Source of the DNA: a virus | DNA length: 64,000 bases | IMG/VR virus record: IMGVR_UViG_3300010158_000036 | Coordinates: 45,332-109,331 of that record | Direction: 5' to 3' (one strand) | Part shown: positions 2,936 to 62,212 of the stretch, piece after piece | Layout: the number at the start of each line of letters is the position of its first letter | Numbering within the stretch: position 1 is the first letter of the stretch | Notes under the pieces: generated by a model | The model's database searches: none | What the model saw: the letters and a program-made list of their open reading frames with translations, nothing else | What the model was told of the DNA's origin: nothing | Program-made: the position numbers and the translations under genes

Positions 2936-3063
2936 GCATAAAATGCGAAAATAATTTTAATCCATTGCAAATCAATTGGTTACGGATATTCATTAAAAAA
3001 CACTCGATTTAATGGTTTTGCCAGAGAATACGAAAAAACCGGAAAATCGTCATTTCCGATTTC

Positions 3064-3090
3064 ATAACTCATTGCAAATCAATGGGTTAT
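3064..3090. promoter_or_regulatory. quasi-palindromic IHF-consensus-like box
   Basis: ATAACTCATTG-CAAAT-CAATGGGTTAT contains WATCAANNNNTTR. Confidence 0.5.
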
Positions 3091-3456
3091 ATTCCGAGAA
3101 ATTCATAAAATCGTGAATTTCTCAATTTACGGGTAAATACCCATAACAAACTCAAATATGCTCTAGATTTGGGCTTTAATTCTTAGAATGTGCAAATTTA
3201 AACTTTTTTCTACCAATCTATCCCAATCGGAACTTTCAATTACTTTTACTGCTTTTATTTTCATATTTACTTAAATAATAGTTTTGGAGCATAATTTCTT
3301 GAAACAGATCTGCTGCGTCATCAACAGCATTTTGAAGGTTTTCAAGTTGAGTACAAGCTTCATCAAGAAATAAACCGATTTCAGTTGGTGTAAACTTTAA
3401 GTTATCTTCTAATCCTCGACACCAACTATTATAAGACGTTATTTTTTCAATGAGAG

Positions 3457-4543: not shown

Positions 4544-4879
4544 TTATTTTTTGAATTTCTCTGATTCCATGATCATTTTAGCCAAATCCCGAGGATTTTC
4601 AATCTTTCTTAGCTTAGATTGATCACTTGATCTGGCTTTTTTGCCATCAATCCCACAAGAATTTTCAAAAATGAACCAGGAAATCCATCCTTCAATATCG
4701 GTCAGATCCAAGAGAATATCGAAGTTTCTCCAGATAGCTTCATATAGTTCTCCATTTATATCCATTGCACCAACATCAACTACGGCTTGGCAAGCTTTAC
4801 TAAGTCTCTGATAAGATTCTATAATATTAGTAATTTTCTTTTCCAACTCTTTAACTTGGGTTTTTTTCATAATTTCCAT
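4544..4879 (-). CDS. hypothetical protein
   Basis: co-oriented ORF, WISWFIFEN phage-type motif. Confidence 0.6.
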   Translation of the reverse strand: MEIMKKTQVKELEKKITNIIESYQRLSKACQAVVDVGAMDINGELYEAIWRNFDILLDLTDIEGWISWFIFENSCGIDGKKARSSDQSKLRKIENPRDLAKMIMESEKFKK

Positions 4880-8701: not shown

Positions 8702-8959
8702 CTATTTTATCCATGATTTATTTGTTATGATATGCTGCATTACTCGTTCAATCTCCTCTGCATATGCTCGGAAAAAATCAGCATCGGAATGACGACCCAT
8801 GGTATCTTCTTTATCCGCTTCAGATCGCATAGCTTTAGCCCATCTTATCGCGAATGTCGGATTATTAATACACTCACACATCAATCTCCAATGACGAAAT
8901 CCCAAATATATACCAAGAATTCGAACTGAGAAATAGAGGTTGATTAGTTTAAAAATCAT
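8702..8959 (-). CDS. hypothetical protein
   Basis: co-oriented ORF. Confidence 0.5.
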   Translation of the reverse strand: MIFKLINLYFSVRILGIYLGFRHWRLMCECINNPTFAIRWAKAMRSEADKEDTMGRHSDADFFRAYAEEIERVMQHIITNKSWIK

Positions 8960-9143
8960 AATTATACTTCTTTCACAAATTTTGCTTTGGCATAACTCCC
9001 AAATAAGGATGCTTTTTTTGTTGCTTTAACATCAGCTTCTTCTTTACTGTTCGCTCGAAAATCTAGGATAAGACCATCGAGAATTGAATTATCACAATTA
9101 ACAATTTTGTAAATAAACCGAAATTCTGGTACGTTTTCCATGA

Positions 9144-14613: not shown

Positions 14614-14630
14614 TGTTGGAGCGGCTTGGG

Positions 14631-14685
14631 GGTTTCCTTACGGGCTCAATATACACCAATTCGACCTTCCTGTACACAAAAAAGT
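14631..14685 (-). promoter_or_regulatory. early promoter (repeat family)
   Basis: GTGTACA-N17-TATATT-GAGCCCGTAAGGAAACC. Confidence 0.85.
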
Positions 14686-14754
14686 ACTAAAAAATGAAAA
14701 TAATTTGGATTTCGAAGAATCCTATTGAAAATCAAGAGGTTATGGATAAAAAAG

Positions 14755-15063
14755 TCCATAATTATTCTTTGAGTTTGGAAGGAAACCAAGAGGAATTTAA
14801 GAGATTCTAAATGATTTTCAAGATTTTTTAAGTCTTAATAATTTCCTATGAAACTCAATTTACATCCTGCAAGGATGTCCTTCGGAAATTCTTTTGTTTG
14901 AATTAAGTATTTTTAAATTCAATTTCTAAGAAGTTGGATTAATTCCTGAAAGGAATTCCCGAAGGGTAATCTTAGTTTTTAGTATTGATATTATTTAAAA
15001 TATTTTTTAATTTATTTTCTATAGTAATTATAACAAACACTAAAACCCTTGTAAAGCAAAAAA
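14755..15063 (-). other. promoter-driven non-coding element A (candidate origin or ncRNA)
   Basis: TTTACA-N17-TATAAT at 15055-15027, no ORF downstream, hairpins, homologous to 60205..60500. Confidence 0.65.
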
Positions 15064-15161: not shown

Positions 15162-15905
15162 TCACTCTATTGTACGAAATTTCTTAACTATAAATTTTAG
15201 AATTTGTGATCTCACAATATCAGATTCATCAAATTCAAATGTAGTAATTCCATTTTCCAATGATTCAGTATCGTTAAAAGTATTAAATACCTTTTCGAAT
15301 CCACTATTTTTAATATCTGGTTGCATCTTGTCTCCTGCTAAAATTAATTTACTGTTCTCTCCTATGCGACTCATTACAGTTAAAATTTCAGTTTTTTCTA
15401 GTTGTTGTGATTCATCCACTAATACAAACATATTATCCCACGTATGGCCTCTAGTGTGGTTAAGCGGCATTGTATCAATAACTCCCGCTTTTTTTATTTT
15501 AAGAATATCACAATCTTCCACAATCTTGTTGATTAACTCAAACATGACTGCATTATATGGGGCCGTTTTCTCGGCTTCAGATCCTGGCAAAAACCCCATA
15601 GATTTAGAAGCACTTTCAACCATAGCTCTTACATATAGTAATTTTTCACAGGTTTTATTTTTAATCATAGTTAAAGCACAAAAAACACTCGTCCATGATT
15701 TTCCCGTACCAGCCGGGCCCTGAATTATAACAACCTTGATATTTGGATCATTAATAATTGCTATTAATTCTTTTTGTTTTTCTGTTAGTTTAAAACTGCG
15801 CTTCTTGAATTTAAAATCTAATTTATTGAAATTTTCAGTTAAGGCTGTTTCAACTTCTTTGAATTCAACTCTTCTTGGTTTCTTCTCGCGTTTTACAGTT
15901 GCCAT
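15162..15905 (-). CDS. phoH: PhoH-family ATPase
   Basis: GPAGTGKS, MGFLPGS..EK, RGHTW, DESQ, SRIGENSK, GDKMQPD, DIVRS; likely start 15905 after TATAAATA. Confidence 0.95.
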   Translation of the reverse strand: MATVKREKKPRRVEFKEVETALTENFNKLDFKFKKRSFKLTEKQKELIAIINDPNIKVVIIQGPAGTGKSWTSVFCALTMIKNKTCEKLLYVRAMVESASKSMGFLPGSEAEKTAPYNAVMFELINKIVEDCDILKIKKAGVIDTMPLNHTRGHTWDNMFVLVDESQQLEKTEILTVMSRIGENSKLILAGDKMQPDIKNSGFEKVFNTFNDTESLENGITTFEFDESDIVRSQILKFIVKKFRTIE

Positions 15906-15913
15906 ATATGAAT

Positions 15914-15939
15914 TATTTATAACCCTATAATTATAAATA
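15914..15939. promoter_or_regulatory. back-to-back T4-type late promoters
   Basis: TATAAATA on minus (15914-15921) and plus (15932-15939). Confidence 0.75.
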
Positions 15940-15946
15940 GTTTCAT

Positions 15947-16306
15947 ATGAACCTACAATTATCACTATTCCTTGCCGTTCTTAACCAAATCCGAGTAGAT
16001 CACTGGCAAACTAAAAGTTTCGCATCTCACATGGCTCTAGGAACTGCATATGATGAGCTTGATGATATCTTTGACGACTTTATTGAAAAGTTTTATGGGC
16101 GTGAAGATGTTTCAACAGAACAAGTACTATATTCTGTGGAAATTGAATCATATAGAGGAGATTCGGTAACAAGATATATAAATCTCAAAAATACACTTCT
16201 TGAATATCTTTGCACTATTACGATGGATAAACCAGATTTAAAAAATATTCAAGATGAAATTGAAGGGATTCTTAATCACTTGATTTATCGGTTGAGACAA
16301 TCATAA
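15947..16306 (+). CDS. ferritin/Dps-like four-helix protein (DUF5856-like)
   Basis: HWQT.SFA.H.ALG..YD.L....D.FIE...G; N..DEI....N...Y.L. Confidence 0.75.
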   Translation: MNLQLSLFLAVLNQIRVDHWQTKSFASHMALGTAYDELDDIFDDFIEKFYGREDVSTEQVLYSVEIESYRGDSVTRYINLKNTLLEYLCTITMDKPDLKNIQDEIEGILNHLIYRLRQS

Positions 16307-59111: not shown

Positions 59112-59453
59112 TCAACCATCTAAAAGATCAGTGACTGTAGTATCTGCTTGCCACATAAGACAACTCCAATAGTTCGCTTTCCACTTAGGACCTGGATTAG
59201 TATCACAATGATGCCGCAACCTATAATTTTTTAGATGTTCTGGATTGTCTCTCTTGATTTCCATAGAGGGGTCACCAAATCCTAGCTTGATGACATTTCC
59301 CTTTTCATTTCGTACATAAACATAAAACTTGTGTTTTTCATCATCGGAACGCCATGGTTTATTCAGAGTTACAGTACGACCATGATACTCAGCAGTTTCA
59401 ACCAAGGAGCTGCTATAATCTTCTCGAATTTGTTTCAGAGTTTTCATTGACAT
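59112..59453 (-). CDS. conserved phage late protein (DUF6321-like)
   Basis: AEY.GR.V.LNKP, FGDP.M.IK, RH.C, ANYWSC..W. Confidence 0.75.
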   Translation of the reverse strand: MSMKTLKQIREDYSSSLVETAEYHGRTVTLNKPWRSDDEKHKFYVYVRNEKGNVIKLGFGDPSMEIKRDNPEHLKNYRLRHHCDTNPGPKWKANYWSCLMWQADTTVTDLLDG

Positions 59454-60202
59454 GATTTAACTAAAGCTGCTTCCTCATCTCTCCGATCAAGAAGTCCTTG
59501 CATATGAGAATTGATCCATAACCGTTTCATAGATACGATTTGTTGTGAGATATAATCATAGATGTTATCTACTTTGATCTTACCGGAGATAGCATCTCTA
59601 ATATTAAGCATTTCTCTGTGTGAGTCTCCTATAACAGATCCTCCTCTATTGAACACCAAGGATACAAGTGCTCCAAATGCATCTTGTTTCAGCTTATCAG
59701 ACCCAGGGAATGATGTGATAGTCTCCTTAATATATCTTGGAATATCACGGTTTTTGAATACGAGTTCAGCAGACTCCCATGGAATTGATATATTTTTCAA
59801 GGATGTTATAACGGCTTTTGCAGCTAATCCAGACTTACCAAGTTGTGTCAAAAGAGTAGTATAAACCTCTGAACTCAACAGAGATTTCCAATCGGATTCA
59901 AACTGTTGTGCTGAACTGAATCTTAAATCATATCCAATTCCTATCGTGACGCCACTACTACCCCCAGGAAATTCCGGAGATTTGAGCTGTGAATTGTAAT
60001 ACTGTCGTCCACCACCAACTTCATACTTAATAATGAGAGCATATGCAGCATCGGATATAGTGATCGCCGATAAAGTCTCAATGGGAAGTACAACACCTAA
60101 TTGAGATGCTATAGCTTTCCATGTTACTGGTCCTGCAACTCCATCAGATACCAAATTTAGCTTGGTTTGAACGGCTTTGATCAAATTAATTGTGTTATCC
60201 AT
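59444..60202 (-). CDS. endolysin: peptidoglycan-binding domain + lysozyme-like domain
   Basis: DGVAGP.TW, E.GG, SGVTIGIGYD, ALVSLVFNRG, GL..RR.EE. Confidence 0.85.
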   Translation of the reverse strand: MDNTINLIKAVQTKLNLVSDGVAGPVTWKAIASQLGVVLPIETLSAITISDAAYALIIKYEVGGGRQYYNSQLKSPEFPGGSSGVTIGIGYDLRFSSAQQFESDWKSLLSSEVYTTLLTQLGKSGLAAKAVITSLKNISIPWESAELVFKNRDIPRYIKETITSFPGSDKLKQDAFGALVSLVFNRGGSVIGDSHREMLNIRDAISGKIKVDNIYDYISQQIVSMKRLWINSHMQGLLDRRDEEAALVKSCQ

Positions 60203-60204
60203 GC

Positions 60205-60500
60205 TTTTTTGCTTTACAAGGTTTTGATGGTTTGTTATAATTAATATAGAAAATAAATTAAAAAATCTTTTAAAAAGCTCATCAAAAAACTATATAGATA
60301 CAACGGGACGTTGCTGAATTACCTAGTAATATATTAAAACTTCTTATAAAAAACTTAAAATTGAATAAGGAGACTCCGAAGGACATCCTGCAAGGATGTG
60401 AATAGTATTACATTAGTAATAAATCATTAATCTTTAGATCTTAAAAATATCTATAATAACTTTAAGTTTCTTCTAGTTGCTCCAAAGAAAAAATGGATGG
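60205..60500 (+). other. promoter-driven non-coding element B (homolog of element A)
   Basis: TTTACA-N17-TATAAT at 60213-60241, TCCGAAGGACATCCTGCAAGGATGT at 60375. Confidence 0.65.
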
Positions 60501-60507
60501 AAGATTT

Positions 60508-61710
60508 TTAGGATTTTCTTGAAAAATATTTTAAATATGGTTTCCAAGCAGACTTAATTTGTTCATTAGTTGCTTCAGGATACATCTTTTTATGTTGTTT
60601 TTGAAATTCATCAAATTTTGTATAATCTGTAGCTTCATTGGCAATAGAATTATCTATCACTTCATCATGGGTTACATCTTCATTCTTTTGAGCAGCATAC
60701 CAAGCTCCTAAACCCATTTCAATACGCTTCTTTTTAGACTTACCATCAAAGATAGGATTTTTGGAATGAACAAAATCATGAATCCAAACTCTAGCTTCAT
60801 CATTTGGATTTAGAACTTCTTCCAAAGAAGATTCATCTAGCTGTTTTATTAATTGAAAAATTTGTTTCATATATACATCATATTTTGCTTGATATGATCT
60901 AGGACTTATAGAACCTTTAGAATTTAGTTTATCAAGTTCTTTTACTTGAACCATAATATCAGCAATCTTTTTTGTAGTGCTTGAATGATCATAATCTGGT
61001 ATTGAGTCACTATCTTCAAGTCCTAAATCTATTTGGGGTAACTTGGAACGCTCTTCAATCTCTTTTAAAGCCTCTCCAAGATTTTCATACCAGAGTGTAC
61101 CAACGTTATCAGCGATACCATAAGGCTTCTTTTCAGAATCTAGGATTACAAAGAAAGTATCATCCCATTTACCAGCTCGCATAGGAATTCCAAAAAGGTG
61201 TAGGATTTTTCCTTTGGGTGTAGTATATATATCCTTGGATGGATTTTTTACTTCCTTAAATCCCAACTTGTTTAAAGTCTTAATAGTCATCTTCCATGAT
61301 ACATCAAGTTCTACTGGAACAATGCCATGATCAATATCAACCTTTTCATATAGTGTTTCAGCTTGCTTATAAAGAGACTCAATAAGAATTCTTGCATCAT
61401 CTGATTCTAAACTCTCATCAAGTAAAGATATTGTATTATATACATCATCAGTCTTTTCAATAATCTTAGATAAAGTCTTGAGAAGATCCTTTGTTATATC
61501 TGTAGATTCTTTAATACCTCTTTTATCAGATATCTTCTTTCCAATTATCCACAATTTTTTATCTTCTTTAGAAGATTTATTTGTGAGAGCATGAGTTTTT
61601 AACCAAAGAAGAAGTTCTTTATCCTTCATTCCGCGGAAGTTTATAAATTTAGGTTTTTCAACTTTTGTAGATTCTTCGATAGAACCTAATATGTGCGATA
61701 GTTTTTTCAT
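60508..61710 (-). CDS. late multi-module protein, candidate head protein
   Basis: many (L/I)xE-S sites; WI.DF..S.NP.F.GKSK..R..M module. Confidence 0.65.
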   Translation of the reverse strand: MKKLSHILGSIEESTKVEKPKFINFRGMKDKELLLWLKTHALTNKSSKEDKKLWIIGKKISDKRGIKESTDITKDLLKTLSKIIEKTDDVYNTISLLDESLESDDARILIESLYKQAETLYEKVDIDHGIVPVELDVSWKMTIKTLNKLGFKEVKNPSKDIYTTPKGKILHLFGIPMRAGKWDDTFFVILDSEKKPYGIADNVGTLWYENLGEALKEIEERSKLPQIDLGLEDSDSIPDYDHSSTTKKIADIMVQVKELDKLNSKGSISPRSYQAKYDVYMKQIFQLIKQLDESSLEEVLNPNDEARVWIHDFVHSKNPIFDGKSKKKRIEMGLGAWYAAQKNEDVTHDEVIDNSIANEATDYTKFDEFQKQHKKMYPEATNEQIKSAWKPYLKYFSRKS

Positions 61711-61711
61711 G

Positions 61712-62212
61712 TTACTTATTTTTGTTTTTATTAAATTCTTCAAAGGTGTCTATTACTACTTGAATACTAGAAGGAAAAGTTTTAGAATTTGAAATCATAT
61801 AATATACATATGATTCAATTAATTCTTCATCGATGTTCTTCTGCAATGATAATTTAGTTATAGCAATTGCTCGATCTTTTTTGAGAATGTCTTTATCTTT
61901 CTTTTCAAGAACATTACCATTACCCATAAGAGAAACCGATCCTTTTCTGGCTTCAGTATCTACAGATTTAACTATAGTAAGTCTTGGTCTAATATCAGTA
62001 TTCTTTGGAGCCATTATAGGAGCTTCTTCATTTCGTTGAGCTTCATAGTATAGTTCCAGAGCTTTTTCAGTACGTTCTTCTTTAGTCATGTTATTGAATT
62101 GAGAATCTCTAGAATTTACAATTTTCTCAATCCAAACTTCAACTGGATCCGATTTTCTAAGAGTTTCTGAAAGATGCACAACCATATCTTTATTTATATT
62201 TTTGAATAGCAT
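61712..62212 (-). CDS. late hypothetical protein
   Basis: shares WI...S....F...TK..R...YY.AQ.NE module with 60508..61710. Confidence 0.6.
   Translation of the reverse strand: MLFKNINKDMVVHLSETLRKSDPVEVWIEKIVNSRDSQFNNMTKEERTEKALELYYEAQRNEEAPIMAPKNTDIRPRLTIVKSVDTEARKGSVSLMGNGNVLEKKDKDILKKDRAIAITKLSLQKNIDEELIESYVYYMISNSKTFPSSIQVVIDTFEEFNKNKNK

What the first reader, a model, noticed from the sequence alone, without database searches (positions are those of the whole stretch)
14755..15063. Two homologous promoter-driven non-coding elements 45 kb apart in opposite orientation (candidate origins)
Seen: element A (minus, from 15063) and element B (plus, 60205-60500) share a near-identical head, GCTTTACAAG-N-TTTGTTATAATTA(C/A)TATAGAAAATAAATTAAAAAAT. 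About 130 nt of very AT-rich DNA follows (shared AACTTCTTA), then TCCGAAGGACATCC-N5-GGATGT(A/G)AAT and further co-linear similarity. Neither has a downstream ORF, and B fires against all neighbouring genes. The palindrome loop is flipped between copies relative to the promoter (TTGCA vs TGCAA), which fits a DNA palindrome or binding site better than a conserved RNA loop. A has extra GAA-loop mini-hairpins at 14941-14966. Known: T4 oriF/oriG are a promoter plus an AT-rich unwinding element forming R-loops. Inference: a family of transcription-primed origins or a duplicated regulatory ncRNA.
Basis: partly seen in the sequence, partly recalled or inferred. Interest (0 to 1): 0.75.

Follow-up and report, generated by a model that had tools for sequence, protein, structure and literature searches.

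The report
Gene-less early-promoter twin-hairpin cassettes
An uncultured T4-like lake phage carries three copies, not two, of a gene-less unit: a near-perfect host-type promoter firing into about 100-140 AT-rich bases that end in two tiny hairpins. Dozens of related phages keep the same kind of unit, usually pointing backwards from the start of a neighbouring gene, and whether it makes a short control RNA or starts DNA replication is still open.

Summary
A (window 15063->14740, minus) and B (60205-60507, plus) share a promoter that fits the sigma-70 consensus in 11 of 12 positions, an identical start region, and a TCC-GAA-GGA hairpin followed by a palindromic hairpin. Their homology extends weakly along the whole length. 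A third copy (C) lies 36 kb before the window.

The new result is that B belongs to a conserved family. Every relative found that keeps the two flanking genes has the same backward promoter, followed by twin mini-hairpins (consensus ACCGWAGGT-TCCCGAAGGG). That block occurs in 42 viral contigs. All 22 distinct copies tested have a promoter matching the phage's own TTTACA-TATAAT early type in 11-12 of 12 positions, 46-85 nt upstream on the same strand (mirror control 0 of 22). Other sites include the terS/terL gap.

The RNA body is not conserved between sites and shows no covariation. The hairpins fold weakly as RNA, but they have the C-GNA-G form that is very stable in single-stranded DNA. The very AT-rich tract is specific to this phage.

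My best reading (0.4) is a self-contained early transcription cassette that makes a short antisense or boundary RNA. An R-loop origin (0.2) is not excluded. It is not a PeSL and has no Rfam match. Earlier follow-ups in this scan reported the same class in other T4-like phage genomes.

The parts
15027..15063 (-). Element A promoter: T-run plus GC, -35 TTTACA (15055-15050), 17-nt spacer, TG-extended -10 TATAAT (15032-15027). Predicted start near 15020.
   Evidence: 11 of 12, TG present. The same architecture is found in B and C.
14990..15026 (-). Element A start region, shared with B and C (TA(C/A)TATAGAAAATA...; A-rich, no ATG).
   Evidence: +1..+40 z 8.7.
14941..14966 (-). Extra hairpin pair in A: CCC-TTC-GGG (14966-14958) plus AATTCCT-TTC-AGGAATT (14957-14941). 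The loops read GAA on the opposite strand. It follows AGATTA, as the twin hairpins do in relatives.
14862..14886 (-). Element A twin hairpins: TCC-GAA-GGA, then (A)CATCC-TTGCA-GGATG(T).
   Evidence: The homologous block is present in B and in L021.
14740..14861 (-). Element A tail, weakly co-linear with B's tail. It ends in the shared CCAAA..AAAGAATAAT motif.
   Evidence: (z 5.2).
60205..60241 (+). Element B promoter: -35 TTTACA (60213-60218), 17-nt spacer, TG-extended -10 TATAAT (60236-60241). Predicted start near 60248. The -35 lies 10 nt from the start codon (60202) of the oppositely oriented 252-aa gene.
   Evidence: Conserved at this site in all relatives examined.
60242..60275 (+). Element B start region, shared with A and C.
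60301..60313 (+). Internal hairpin CAACG-GGA-CGTTG, at the position of A's extra hairpin pair.
60375..60399 (+). Element B twin hairpins: TCC-GAA-GGA, then (A)CATCC-TGCAA-GGATG(T).
   Evidence: In L021 the second stem is CATTCC/GGAATG, a paired insertion that keeps the helix.
60400..60507 (+). Element B tail, running up to the stop codon (60508-60510) of the convergent 411-aa gene.
59444..60202 (-). 252-aa gene back-to-back with B's promoter. Probably a lysozyme-type muramidase with an N-terminal peptidoglycan-binding domain (weak evidence).
   Evidence: Pfam hits below threshold: Phage_lysozyme E 0.0018, PG_binding_1 E 0.0099. Profile against PDB: endolysin 7rum, E 0.023. Homologues at 51-65% identity flank the cassette in relatives.
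60508..61743 (-). 411-aa gene of unknown function that converges on B.
   Evidence: Homologues flank the cassette in relatives.

Best explanation
A, B and a third copy C are paralogous copies of a self-contained, gene-less early transcription cassette. The same cassette is found widely in uncultured T4-like phage contigs from metagenomes.

The proposed mechanism has three steps. (1) Host sigma-70 RNA polymerase starts at a T4-early-type promoter (T-run, TTTACA, N17, TG-TATAAT). (2) It transcribes 100-140 nt of A-rich sequence with no ORF; relatives have 46-85 nt between the -10 element and the hairpins. (3) It meets two adjacent mini-hairpins that mark the functional end of the unit.

At B and C, and at most sites in relatives, the cassette fills an intergenic gap in antisense orientation. 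The promoter sits back-to-back with the start of the downstream gene: a lysozyme-like gene at B and terL in relatives. The hairpins sit just behind the stop codon of the upstream gene.

I infer that the cassette works early in infection as an antisense or boundary element. Convergent transcription, together with a short RNA complementary to the intercistronic mRNA, would damp read-through expression of the gene behind it. The hairpins would keep the antisense polymerase or RNA out of the upstream gene. Copy A is the same module duplicated in sense orientation after phoH.

Shown: the anatomy, the paralogy, the conservation of position and orientation, and the strict promoter-hairpin coupling. 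Inferred: that the cassette is transcribed at all, where its RNA ends, and any regulatory effect.
For: Promoters fit the consensus in 11 of 12 positions, with an extended -10. They match the T4/PST early consensus TTTACW-N17-TAYWAT given in PMC4122927.

The genome has three copies that share the promoter and start region.

B's site is conserved. All 12 distinct loci with a homologue of the 252-aa gene (51-100% identity) have CCGNAGG hairpins downstream of the gene's start on the antisense strand. Eleven of them scored an 11-12/12 backward promoter within 120 nt of the start codon in that scan. The twelfth, L052, missed only because its start codon was mis-anchored, and one search had already found its promoter.

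The twin-hairpin block occurs in 42 IMG/VR contigs. All 22 distinct copies tested have an 11-12/12 promoter 46-85 nt upstream on the same strand. The mirror control gave 0 of 22 at 10 or more, and the background rate is 1.8% per window.

The hairpins lie 4 nt from the terS stop codon or about 40 nt from the stop of the 411-aa homologue, and the promoter lies about 20 nt from the next gene's start.

Stems differ but always pair: TCC/GGA, ACC/GGT and TATCCC/GGGATA for the first hairpin; CATCC/GGATG, CATTCC/GGAATG, TAGC/GCTA and TCCC/GGGA for the second.

CCGAAGG-type hairpins occur nowhere else in non-coding DNA of the contig, so they are not generic terminators.
Against: No transcript evidence was obtained. 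The one lake metatranscriptome that holds the region gave only scattered low-depth contigs.

The hairpins have no U-tract. As RNA they are weak and fold no better than shuffles, so termination there is unproven.

Copy A, and the HNH/exonuclease site in relatives, are in sense orientation, where no gene is opposed.

The near-invariance of the hairpin loops and the C-GNA-G form suit single-stranded DNA better than RNA (PMC13037366).

The lysozyme identity of the 252-aa protein is weak. That the neighbouring genes are 'late' is an assumption, except for terL and for the gene beside C, which has a TATAAATA motif.
Confidence: 0.4

Rival explanations
1. The cassettes are transcription-primed (R-loop) replication origins of the T4 oriF/oriG/oriE kind. 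The early transcript stays hybridised to the easily melted body. The displaced non-template strand folds into very stable C-GNA-G DNA mini-hairpins that hold the loop open or mark a primosome loading site. The RNA then primes leading-strand synthesis.
For: T4 minimal origins are about 100 bp, consisting of a promoter plus an AT-rich unwinding element with no sequence requirement, and oriE depends on an early promoter (PMC3016281). That fits a conserved promoter with an unconserved body.

A's body is among the 5 least stable 60-bp regions of the 109-kb contig, and B's is in the top 1%.

The hairpin cores are C-GAA-G or C-GTA-G. As DNA these melt at 70-76 C, whereas the RNA version is far weaker. 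CCGAAGG itself lies in the RSF1010 ssiA priming signal (PMC13037366).

The loops read GNA on the non-template strand in all 22 family copies. RNA folding is weak. There are several copies per genome, as with T4's several origins.
Against: The AT-rich tract is not conserved. Family bodies are 58-77% AT in loci that are 57-68% AT overall.

There is no GC- or AT-skew change at A, B or C.

The second hairpin in A, B and C is an ordinary hairpin, its loop is flipped between A and B, and A's extra pair has its GNA loops on the template strand.

The tight fit between a stop codon and a start codon looks like gene-expression architecture. T4 itself has no twin CCGNAGG site, and its CCGAAGG sites in the 100-150 kb region that was inspected lie in longer palindromes with no promoter. 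No replication data exist.
Confidence: 0.2
2. The cassettes are PeSL-like mobile regulatory modules (early promoter plus stem-loop). Their main significance would be as dispersed near-identical repeats that promote recombination and gene shuffling, and the RNA would have no function of its own.
For: The three copies share a near-identical head of about 80 bp, while the rest has diverged. Paralogues in another contig also share their 5' heads (L083 and L087).

The same cassette sits at unrelated sites and beside homing-endonuclease-like genes.

The relative with 78%-identical PhoH has different DNA where A lies.

One RNA-library contig departs from the window sequence at 60351, inside B (weak).

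The promoter matches the T4/PST PeSL promoter consensus (PMC4122927).
Against: The defining PeSL layout is not met. In PeSLs the stem-loop lies just upstream of the promoter, and a Shine-Dalgarno sequence and a start codon follow it. Here the hairpins lie 46-140 nt downstream and no gene follows.

B's site is stably inherited with both flanking genes down to 42-51% protein identity, which is the opposite of a shuffling hot spot.

The strict orientation coupling of promoter and hairpins points to a transcription-linked function.
Confidence: 0.15
3. The cassettes are genes for a structured, trans-acting small RNA, for example a protein sponge or a base-pairing sRNA. The shared 5' region would be the seed, and the twin hairpins a protein handle or terminator.
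For: Each copy has its own strong promoter, lacks an ORF and occurs several times per genome. The 5' region is shared by paralogues within a genome. The hairpin block is conserved. A folds better than shuffles (z -3.2).
Against: The body is unrelated between sites, and RNAalifold finds essentially no covariation. B folds no better than shuffles (z -0.9). The twin hairpins are marginal as RNA. There is no Rfam match, even at a permissive E-value. There is no canonical terminator.
Confidence: 0.1
4. For A only: it is an ordinary early promoter with a long structured leader for the downstream genes (the 102-aa gene and those beyond).
For: A points the same way as its neighbours. In relatives the sense copies precede an exonuclease gene by about 95 nt.
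Against: The 102-aa gene has its own promoter and the leader type seen at other genes of this phage. About 400 nt of ORF-free RNA would precede it. A is homologous along its whole length to B, which has no gene downstream.
Confidence: 0.05

Closest known systems
PeSL cassettes (promoter-early stem-loop) of T4-type phages RB49/phi1, T4/PST and KVP40/nt-1 (PMC2839356, PMC4122927)
   Same: Both are small intergenic composites of a T4-type early promoter (TTTACW-N17-TAYWAT) and short G+C stem-loops. Both are dispersed in several well-conserved copies within a T4-like genome.
   Different: In PeSLs the stem-loop lies directly upstream of the promoter, the unit points with the genes, and it ends in a Shine-Dalgarno sequence and a start codon. 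Here the hairpins lie 46-140 nt downstream of the promoter, no gene follows, and most copies point against the genes. B's site is inherited stably rather than shuffled.
Bacteriophage T4 replication origins oriF(uvsY), oriG(34) and oriE (Kreuzer and Brister 2010, PMC3016281)
   Same: Both combine a promoter with an easily melted AT-rich tract in a unit of about 100 bp, occur several times per genome and put no sequence requirement on the transcribed part. oriE uses an early promoter.
   Different: oriF and oriG use MotA-dependent middle promoters and lie within or next to transcribed genes. No hairpin motif is known at T4 origins. The AT-rich tract is not kept in this family. R-loop formation and replication are untested here.
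Lambda oop RNA (a short cis-antisense phage RNA with its own sigma-70 promoter).
   Same: Both are short, non-coding, promoter-driven transcription units set convergently at the 3' end of a neighbouring gene.
   Different: oop ends in a canonical hairpin-plus-U terminator and overlaps the cII coding end. Here there is no U-tract, and the unit stops, if it stops, before the neighbouring ORF.
DNA mini-hairpins GCGNAGC and CCGAAGG (Hirao and co-workers; review PMC13037366), as found in the phage G4 origin, RSF1010 ssiA and N4 early promoters
   Same: The first hairpin of A, B and C and both hairpins of the family have a C-G-closed GNA triloop backed by a second G-C pair. CCGAAGG is the same heptamer as in ssiA.
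   Different: Those examples act in single-stranded DNA at priming or promoter sites. Here the context is double-stranded phage DNA downstream of a sigma-70 promoter, and hairpin formation in DNA is only inferred.
C(UUCG)G-type hairpins of T4 intercistronic regions and terminators (for example after gene 23)
   Same: T4 contains CCGAAGG/CCTTCGG cores in its intergenic hairpins. The 12-mer CCGAAGGTTCCC of the family block also occurs in the hairpin after T4 gene 23.
   Different: The T4 sites are single, longer palindromes with a U-tract on the coding strand and no promoter on the GAA strand (best 9 of 12). No two T4 sites are adjacent.

Membership tests
T4-type R-loop origin (oriF/oriG/oriE) | A promoter that supplies the primer RNA (MotA-dependent middle promoter at oriF and oriG; early promoter at oriE) | tested here: met
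   A sigma-70 early-type promoter, 11 of 12 with an extended -10. It is not a middle promoter: TGCTTTA is present, but 19 nt from the -10 where I recall 11-13 nt for T4 middle promoters (PMC2988021 centres the MotA box at -30).
T4-type R-loop origin (oriF/oriG/oriE) | An A+T-rich DNA unwinding element directly downstream of the promoter | tested here: inconclusive
   A is in the 5 least stable regions of the contig, B in the top 1% and C in the top 4%. Bodies of the wider family are not AT-enriched.
T4-type R-loop origin (oriF/oriG/oriE) | A persistent RNA-DNA hybrid, and phage-dependent autonomous replication of a plasmid carrying the element | not testable with these tools
   Needs wet-lab assays. 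Skew shows no inflection at any copy, but T4 oriA and oriC also lack one (PMC3016281).
PeSL cassette | A sigma-70-like early promoter of the T4 type | tested here: met
   TTTACA-N17-TATAAT fits TTTACW-N17-TAYWAT.
PeSL cassette | A stem-loop immediately upstream of the promoter | tested here: not met
   The hairpins lie 95-135 nt downstream of the -10 in A, B and C, and 46-85 nt downstream in relatives.
PeSL cassette | A Shine-Dalgarno sequence and the start codon of a downstream gene at the 3' end | tested here: not met
   No ORF of 50 aa or more starts within 120 nt of the predicted start site. B and C run into the ends of convergent genes.
Cis-antisense phage sRNA (lambda oop type) | Its own constitutive promoter, convergent with a neighbouring gene | tested here: met
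   True for B, C and most family copies. A is in sense orientation.
Cis-antisense phage sRNA (lambda oop type) | An intrinsic terminator (G+C hairpin followed by a U-run) that defines a short RNA | tested here: not met
   No terminator-like site in either region. The tails after the hairpins are not U-runs.
Cis-antisense phage sRNA (lambda oop type) | A detectable discrete transcript overlapping the target mRNA | tested here: inconclusive
   Only one RNA run held the region, and only as low-depth contigs without strand or end information.
DNA mini-hairpin (GCGNAGC class) | A GNA triloop closed by a C-G pair, with a second G-C pair behind it | tested here: met
   CC-GAA-GG in A, B and C. CC-G(A/T)A-GG and CCC-GAA-GGG in all family copies. 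The second hairpin of A, B and C does not fit.
DNA mini-hairpin (GCGNAGC class) | Forms and acts in single-stranded DNA | not testable with these tools
   Would need chemical or nuclease probing of the non-template strand during transcription.
Any Rfam RNA family | A covariance-model match at or near the gathering score | tested here: not met
   Nothing for A or B at E up to 10 beyond chance-level hits. Nothing in 9 related loci at gathering thresholds.

The most novel reading that the evidence does not exclude
The cassettes are the replication origins of a large clade of uncultured T4-like phages. An early transcript forms an R-loop, and the conserved C-GNA-G mini-hairpins fold on the displaced non-template strand. 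There they lock the loop open and mark where the helicase and primase load. If so, the twin-hairpin block would be the first sequence signature that allows T4-type origins to be recognised in genomes.
Probability: 0.18. Interest if true: 0.85.

Novelty: new variant of a known kind. Interest (0 to 1): 0.6.

Why it matters
Outside T4 itself, almost nothing is known about non-coding control elements or replication origins of T4-like phages. This unit is strongly selected. The promoter stays at 11-12 of 12 consensus positions and the 19-20 nt hairpin block stays identical, while the neighbouring proteins have fallen to 30-60% identity. It is absent from Rfam and from GenBank phage genomes at blastn sensitivity.

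If it is a boundary or antisense device, it shows how phages with nearly all genes on one strand could shield particular genes, such as terL and a lysozyme-like gene, from early read-through. If it is an origin, it gives a recognisable origin signature and a role in double-stranded DNA phages for very stable DNA mini-hairpins. Both ideas can be tested with a cloned 300-bp fragment.

Tried and rejected
- Rfam (gathering and permissive thresholds) on the window, on A, on B and on 9 related loci: no real match.
- blastn of A, B and two family members against 50,697 GenBank phage records: no match.
- A small protein: the bodies of A and B contain no ATG. The ATG-stop inside hairpin 2 and the 34-aa ORF on B's opposite strand are not conserved in A or L021.
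- A plus-strand gene ending at A's hairpins: the 124-aa plus-strand ORF scores like a shadow of the 102-aa minus-strand gene.
- The hairpins as generic terminators: CCGAAGG-type hairpins occur in non-coding DNA only inside the cassettes. The one other strong hit is inside a 1332-aa gene. The contig has hardly any canonical terminators.
- GC or AT skew as an origin marker: no inflection.
- Covariation in the RNA body within three site-specific groups: essentially none.
- RNA evidence: one lake metatranscriptome held 14% of the words. The laid contigs are short, of low depth and without strand information. The part of B with low cover, and the loose end at 60351, cannot be interpreted.
- A helicase next to one family copy is not UvsW, so the idea that the cassette shields uvsW was dropped.
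- A pattern search for closer relatives of the A/B hairpin block returned only chance hits in G+C-rich coding DNA.
- The relative with 78%-identical PhoH has no A-type element in its 25-kb contig.
- The Gp23 and T4-portal Pfam families were not found in this half-genome contig, and the control also failed, so this says nothing either way.
Gene neighbourhoods were fetched with the search for related loci instead.
- A match to the CsrA-binding consensus, and resemblances to lambda boxB/nut and HK022 put, were considered from memory only and not pursued.

Full report
**Observation.** Read on its minus strand from 15063, element A has a run of T, then GC, then TTTACA, a 17-nt spacer and a TG-extended TATAAT. 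An A-rich start region and about 130 nt of AT-rich DNA follow. Next come TCC-GAA-GGA and, directly after it, CATCC-TTGCA-GGATG, and then about 120 nt of tail. Element B (plus strand, 60205-60507) has the same plan. The 36-nt head and the 25-nt hairpin block each occur exactly twice in the window, with none expected by chance. Both promoters score 11 of 12 with an extended -10. The pairwise alignment has 79% column identity. Against shuffles the similarity is very strong for the promoter (z 13.5) and the first 40 transcribed bases (z 8.7). It is moderate for the tail (z 5.2) and weak for the body (z 3.2). On A's promoter strand the loops of those extra hairpins read TTC.

**Surroundings.** The window is the right-hand 64 kb of a 109-kb IMG/VR contig estimated to be about half a genome. 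The contig has 35% G+C, and nearly all genes lie on the minus strand. The T4 late-promoter word TATAAATA occurs 27 times on the gene strand and 8 times on the other. Earlier notes of this scan call the phage T4-like, and I did not re-test that beyond promoter style.

- A follows phoH (15162-15965) and points with the genes. The next real gene (102 aa, 14613-14305) has its own promoter and leader, and the overlapping plus-strand ORF is a shadow.
- B points against its neighbours. Its -35 lies 10 nt from the start codon of a 252-aa gene, and its tail ends at the stop codon of a 411-aa gene.
- The 252-aa protein is probably a lysozyme-type enzyme with a peptidoglycan-binding N-terminus. All the evidence for this is below threshold.

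**A third copy.** A scan of the whole contig for strong promoters found copy C at contig 8830-9060 (plus strand), 36 kb before the window. It shares the upstream T-run, the -35, the -10 and the first 15 transcribed bases. It then has TATCCC-GAA-GGGATA, directly followed by TAGC-AGCAG-GCTA. C is also antisense. It lies between a sulfotransferase-like gene and a small gene with a TATAAATA motif just before its start codon. That small gene heads a short run of genes that includes an endolysin-like protein.

**The family.** Homologues of the 411-aa protein led to related contigs. In these, the gap between the two homologous genes holds a backward TTTACA-N16/17-TATAAT promoter. Two adjacent mini-hairpins follow it, with the consensus ACC-G(A/T)A-GGT then TCCC-GAA-GGGA.

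A pattern scan found this exact block in 42 IMG/VR contigs. With the metagenome loci this gives 50 instances and 24 distinct sequences. In all 22 distinct copies with enough flank, an 11-12/12 promoter lies 46-85 nt upstream on the same strand. The mirror-image control never exceeded 9 of 12, and random 170-nt windows reach 11 of 12 in 1.8% of cases.

The cassette occupies several sites:
- B's site.
- The gap between terS and terL, with the hairpins 4 nt from the terS stop codon and the promoter about 20 nt from the terL start codon.
- A site next to a helicase gene.
- In sense orientation, a site between an HNH-like gene and an exonuclease gene.

At B's site, all 12 distinct loci with a homologue of the 252-aa gene carry CCGNAGG hairpins on the antisense strand. 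Eleven of them scored a backward promoter in that scan. L052 was mis-anchored there and has the promoter. The seven loci that were found through the protein, not through the motif, are the unbiased part of this set.

The metagenome contig L021 has a 411-aa homologue at 42% identity and is the closest relative of B's version. It keeps the promoter (here TTGACA), part of the start region, ACTT(C)TTA, CTCC-GAA-GGA and the tail motif. Its second stem is CATTCC/GGAATG, against CATCC/GGATG in B. That is an insertion on both sides that preserves pairing.

A carries the same tail motif although no 411-aa gene is near it. A therefore looks like a copy of the whole B-type intergenic unit.

**What is and is not conserved.** Conserved: the promoter, a start region that is shared among paralogues of one genome but differs between genomes, the adjacency of two hairpins, and the C-GNA-G core of at least the first hairpin. 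Not conserved: the body, which is unrelated between sites, varies in length and shows essentially no covariation. The extreme AT-richness is not conserved either: it is marked in A, clear in B and modest in C, and it is absent from the wider family.

As RNA the twin hairpins are marginal, at -5 to -10 kcal/mol. The family consensus folds no better than shuffles, and the 3-bp first hairpin is usually not predicted at all. As DNA, C-GNA-G mini-hairpins melt at 70-76 C. The RNA counterpart is far weaker. CCGAAGG is the heptamer in the RSF1010 ssiA priming signal (PMC13037366).

Neither strand has a U-run after the hairpins. In most relatives I saw no TATAAATA motif between the backward promoter and the downstream gene. 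The mRNA for that gene probably reads through the hairpins, so their action appears tied to the promoter strand.

**Comparison with known systems.**
- PeSL cassettes of T4-type phages share the promoter type and the idea of a dispersed promoter-plus-stem-loop module. Their defining layout (stem-loop just upstream of the promoter, then a Shine-Dalgarno sequence and a start codon) is not met.
- T4 origins share the promoter-plus-unwinding-tract logic and the lack of any sequence requirement in the transcribed part. The unwinding tract is not a family feature here, there is no skew signal, and nothing about replication can be tested.
- T4 itself has 30 CCGNAGG sites, none adjacent to another. Those I inspected lie in longer single palindromes with a U-tail on the coding strand and no promoter on the GAA strand.
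- No Rfam family and no GenBank phage record matches.

**Verdict.** The elements are real and under strong selection. They belong to a family that I found neither in Rfam nor in the papers I searched.

I favour, at about 0.4, a self-contained early transcription cassette acting as an antisense or boundary device at the front of particular genes. The R-loop origin reading stays alive at about 0.2, mainly because the hairpins look built for single-stranded DNA. PeSL-like recombination modules (0.15) and a structured trans-acting sRNA (0.1) are less likely. Transcription, RNA ends and any effect on neighbouring genes or on replication are all inferred, not shown.

Earlier follow-ups in this scan reached similar conclusions for the same class of element in other T4-like phage genomes. 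I used them as leads only.

Noticed in passing
window 14614-14676 (minus); also promoters at window 38214, 44272 and 44544 (minus): There is a second class of early promoter (TTGTTTACA-type -35). Its transcripts begin with a conserved CCCGTAAGG (GNRA-type) mini-hairpin followed by a C/A-rich leader with no obvious Shine-Dalgarno sequence, for example before the 102-aa gene. This may be a shared 5' stabiliser or translation leader.
   Followed up: no
G000:C1:1-6000 (outside the window): The first 6 kb of the contig has 44-55% G+C, against about 33% elsewhere. This could be a foreign module or an assembly chimera.
   Followed up: no
G000:C1:8795-8830 (L005 about 1796-1830): The exact late-promoter word TATAAATA lies only about 5 nt before the start codon of the 114-aa gene beside copy C. 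This implies a nearly leaderless late mRNA.
   Followed up: no
window 60351: One contig of a lake metatranscriptome follows the window up to 60351, inside B's body, and then continues for 255 nt with unrelated sequence. This may be a strain variant with a recombination junction inside the cassette, or an assembly artefact.
   Followed up: no
L095:1050-1127 (minus): One terS/terL copy has a third unit (TTTGACC-GCG-GT) inserted before the twin hairpins. It looks like a tandem duplication of the first hairpin unit.
   Followed up: no
L045 about 4560-4700 and L046 about 3030-3150 (minus strand): Other orphan early promoters downstream of 411-aa homologues fire into a different hairpin, TCCG-GGA-CGGA, and later TAGC-GAT-GCTA. 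The CG-GGA-CG core is the same as in B's internal hairpin at 60301-60313.
   Followed up: partly
L006:3760-4600: In the relative with 78%-identical PhoH, the DNA after phoH is unrelated to element A and carries other ORFs. A's site is therefore variable between relatives.
   Followed up: partly
window 15947-16306 (plus): This is one of the few plus-strand ORFs (119 aa). It hits a PHROG annotated as a starvation-inducible transcriptional regulator (E 7e-14) and lies divergent from phoH, overlapping phoH's first codons.
   Followed up: no
L023, L024, L051, L052, L065 (B-site cassettes): In this subgroup the first hairpin has a GTA loop, and the 5' part of the transcript carries AACGG, which is complementary to ACCGT of that hairpin. 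This gives a possible alternative long-range helix. L023 also has a 12-bp inverted repeat that overlaps its -10 element.
   Followed up: partly
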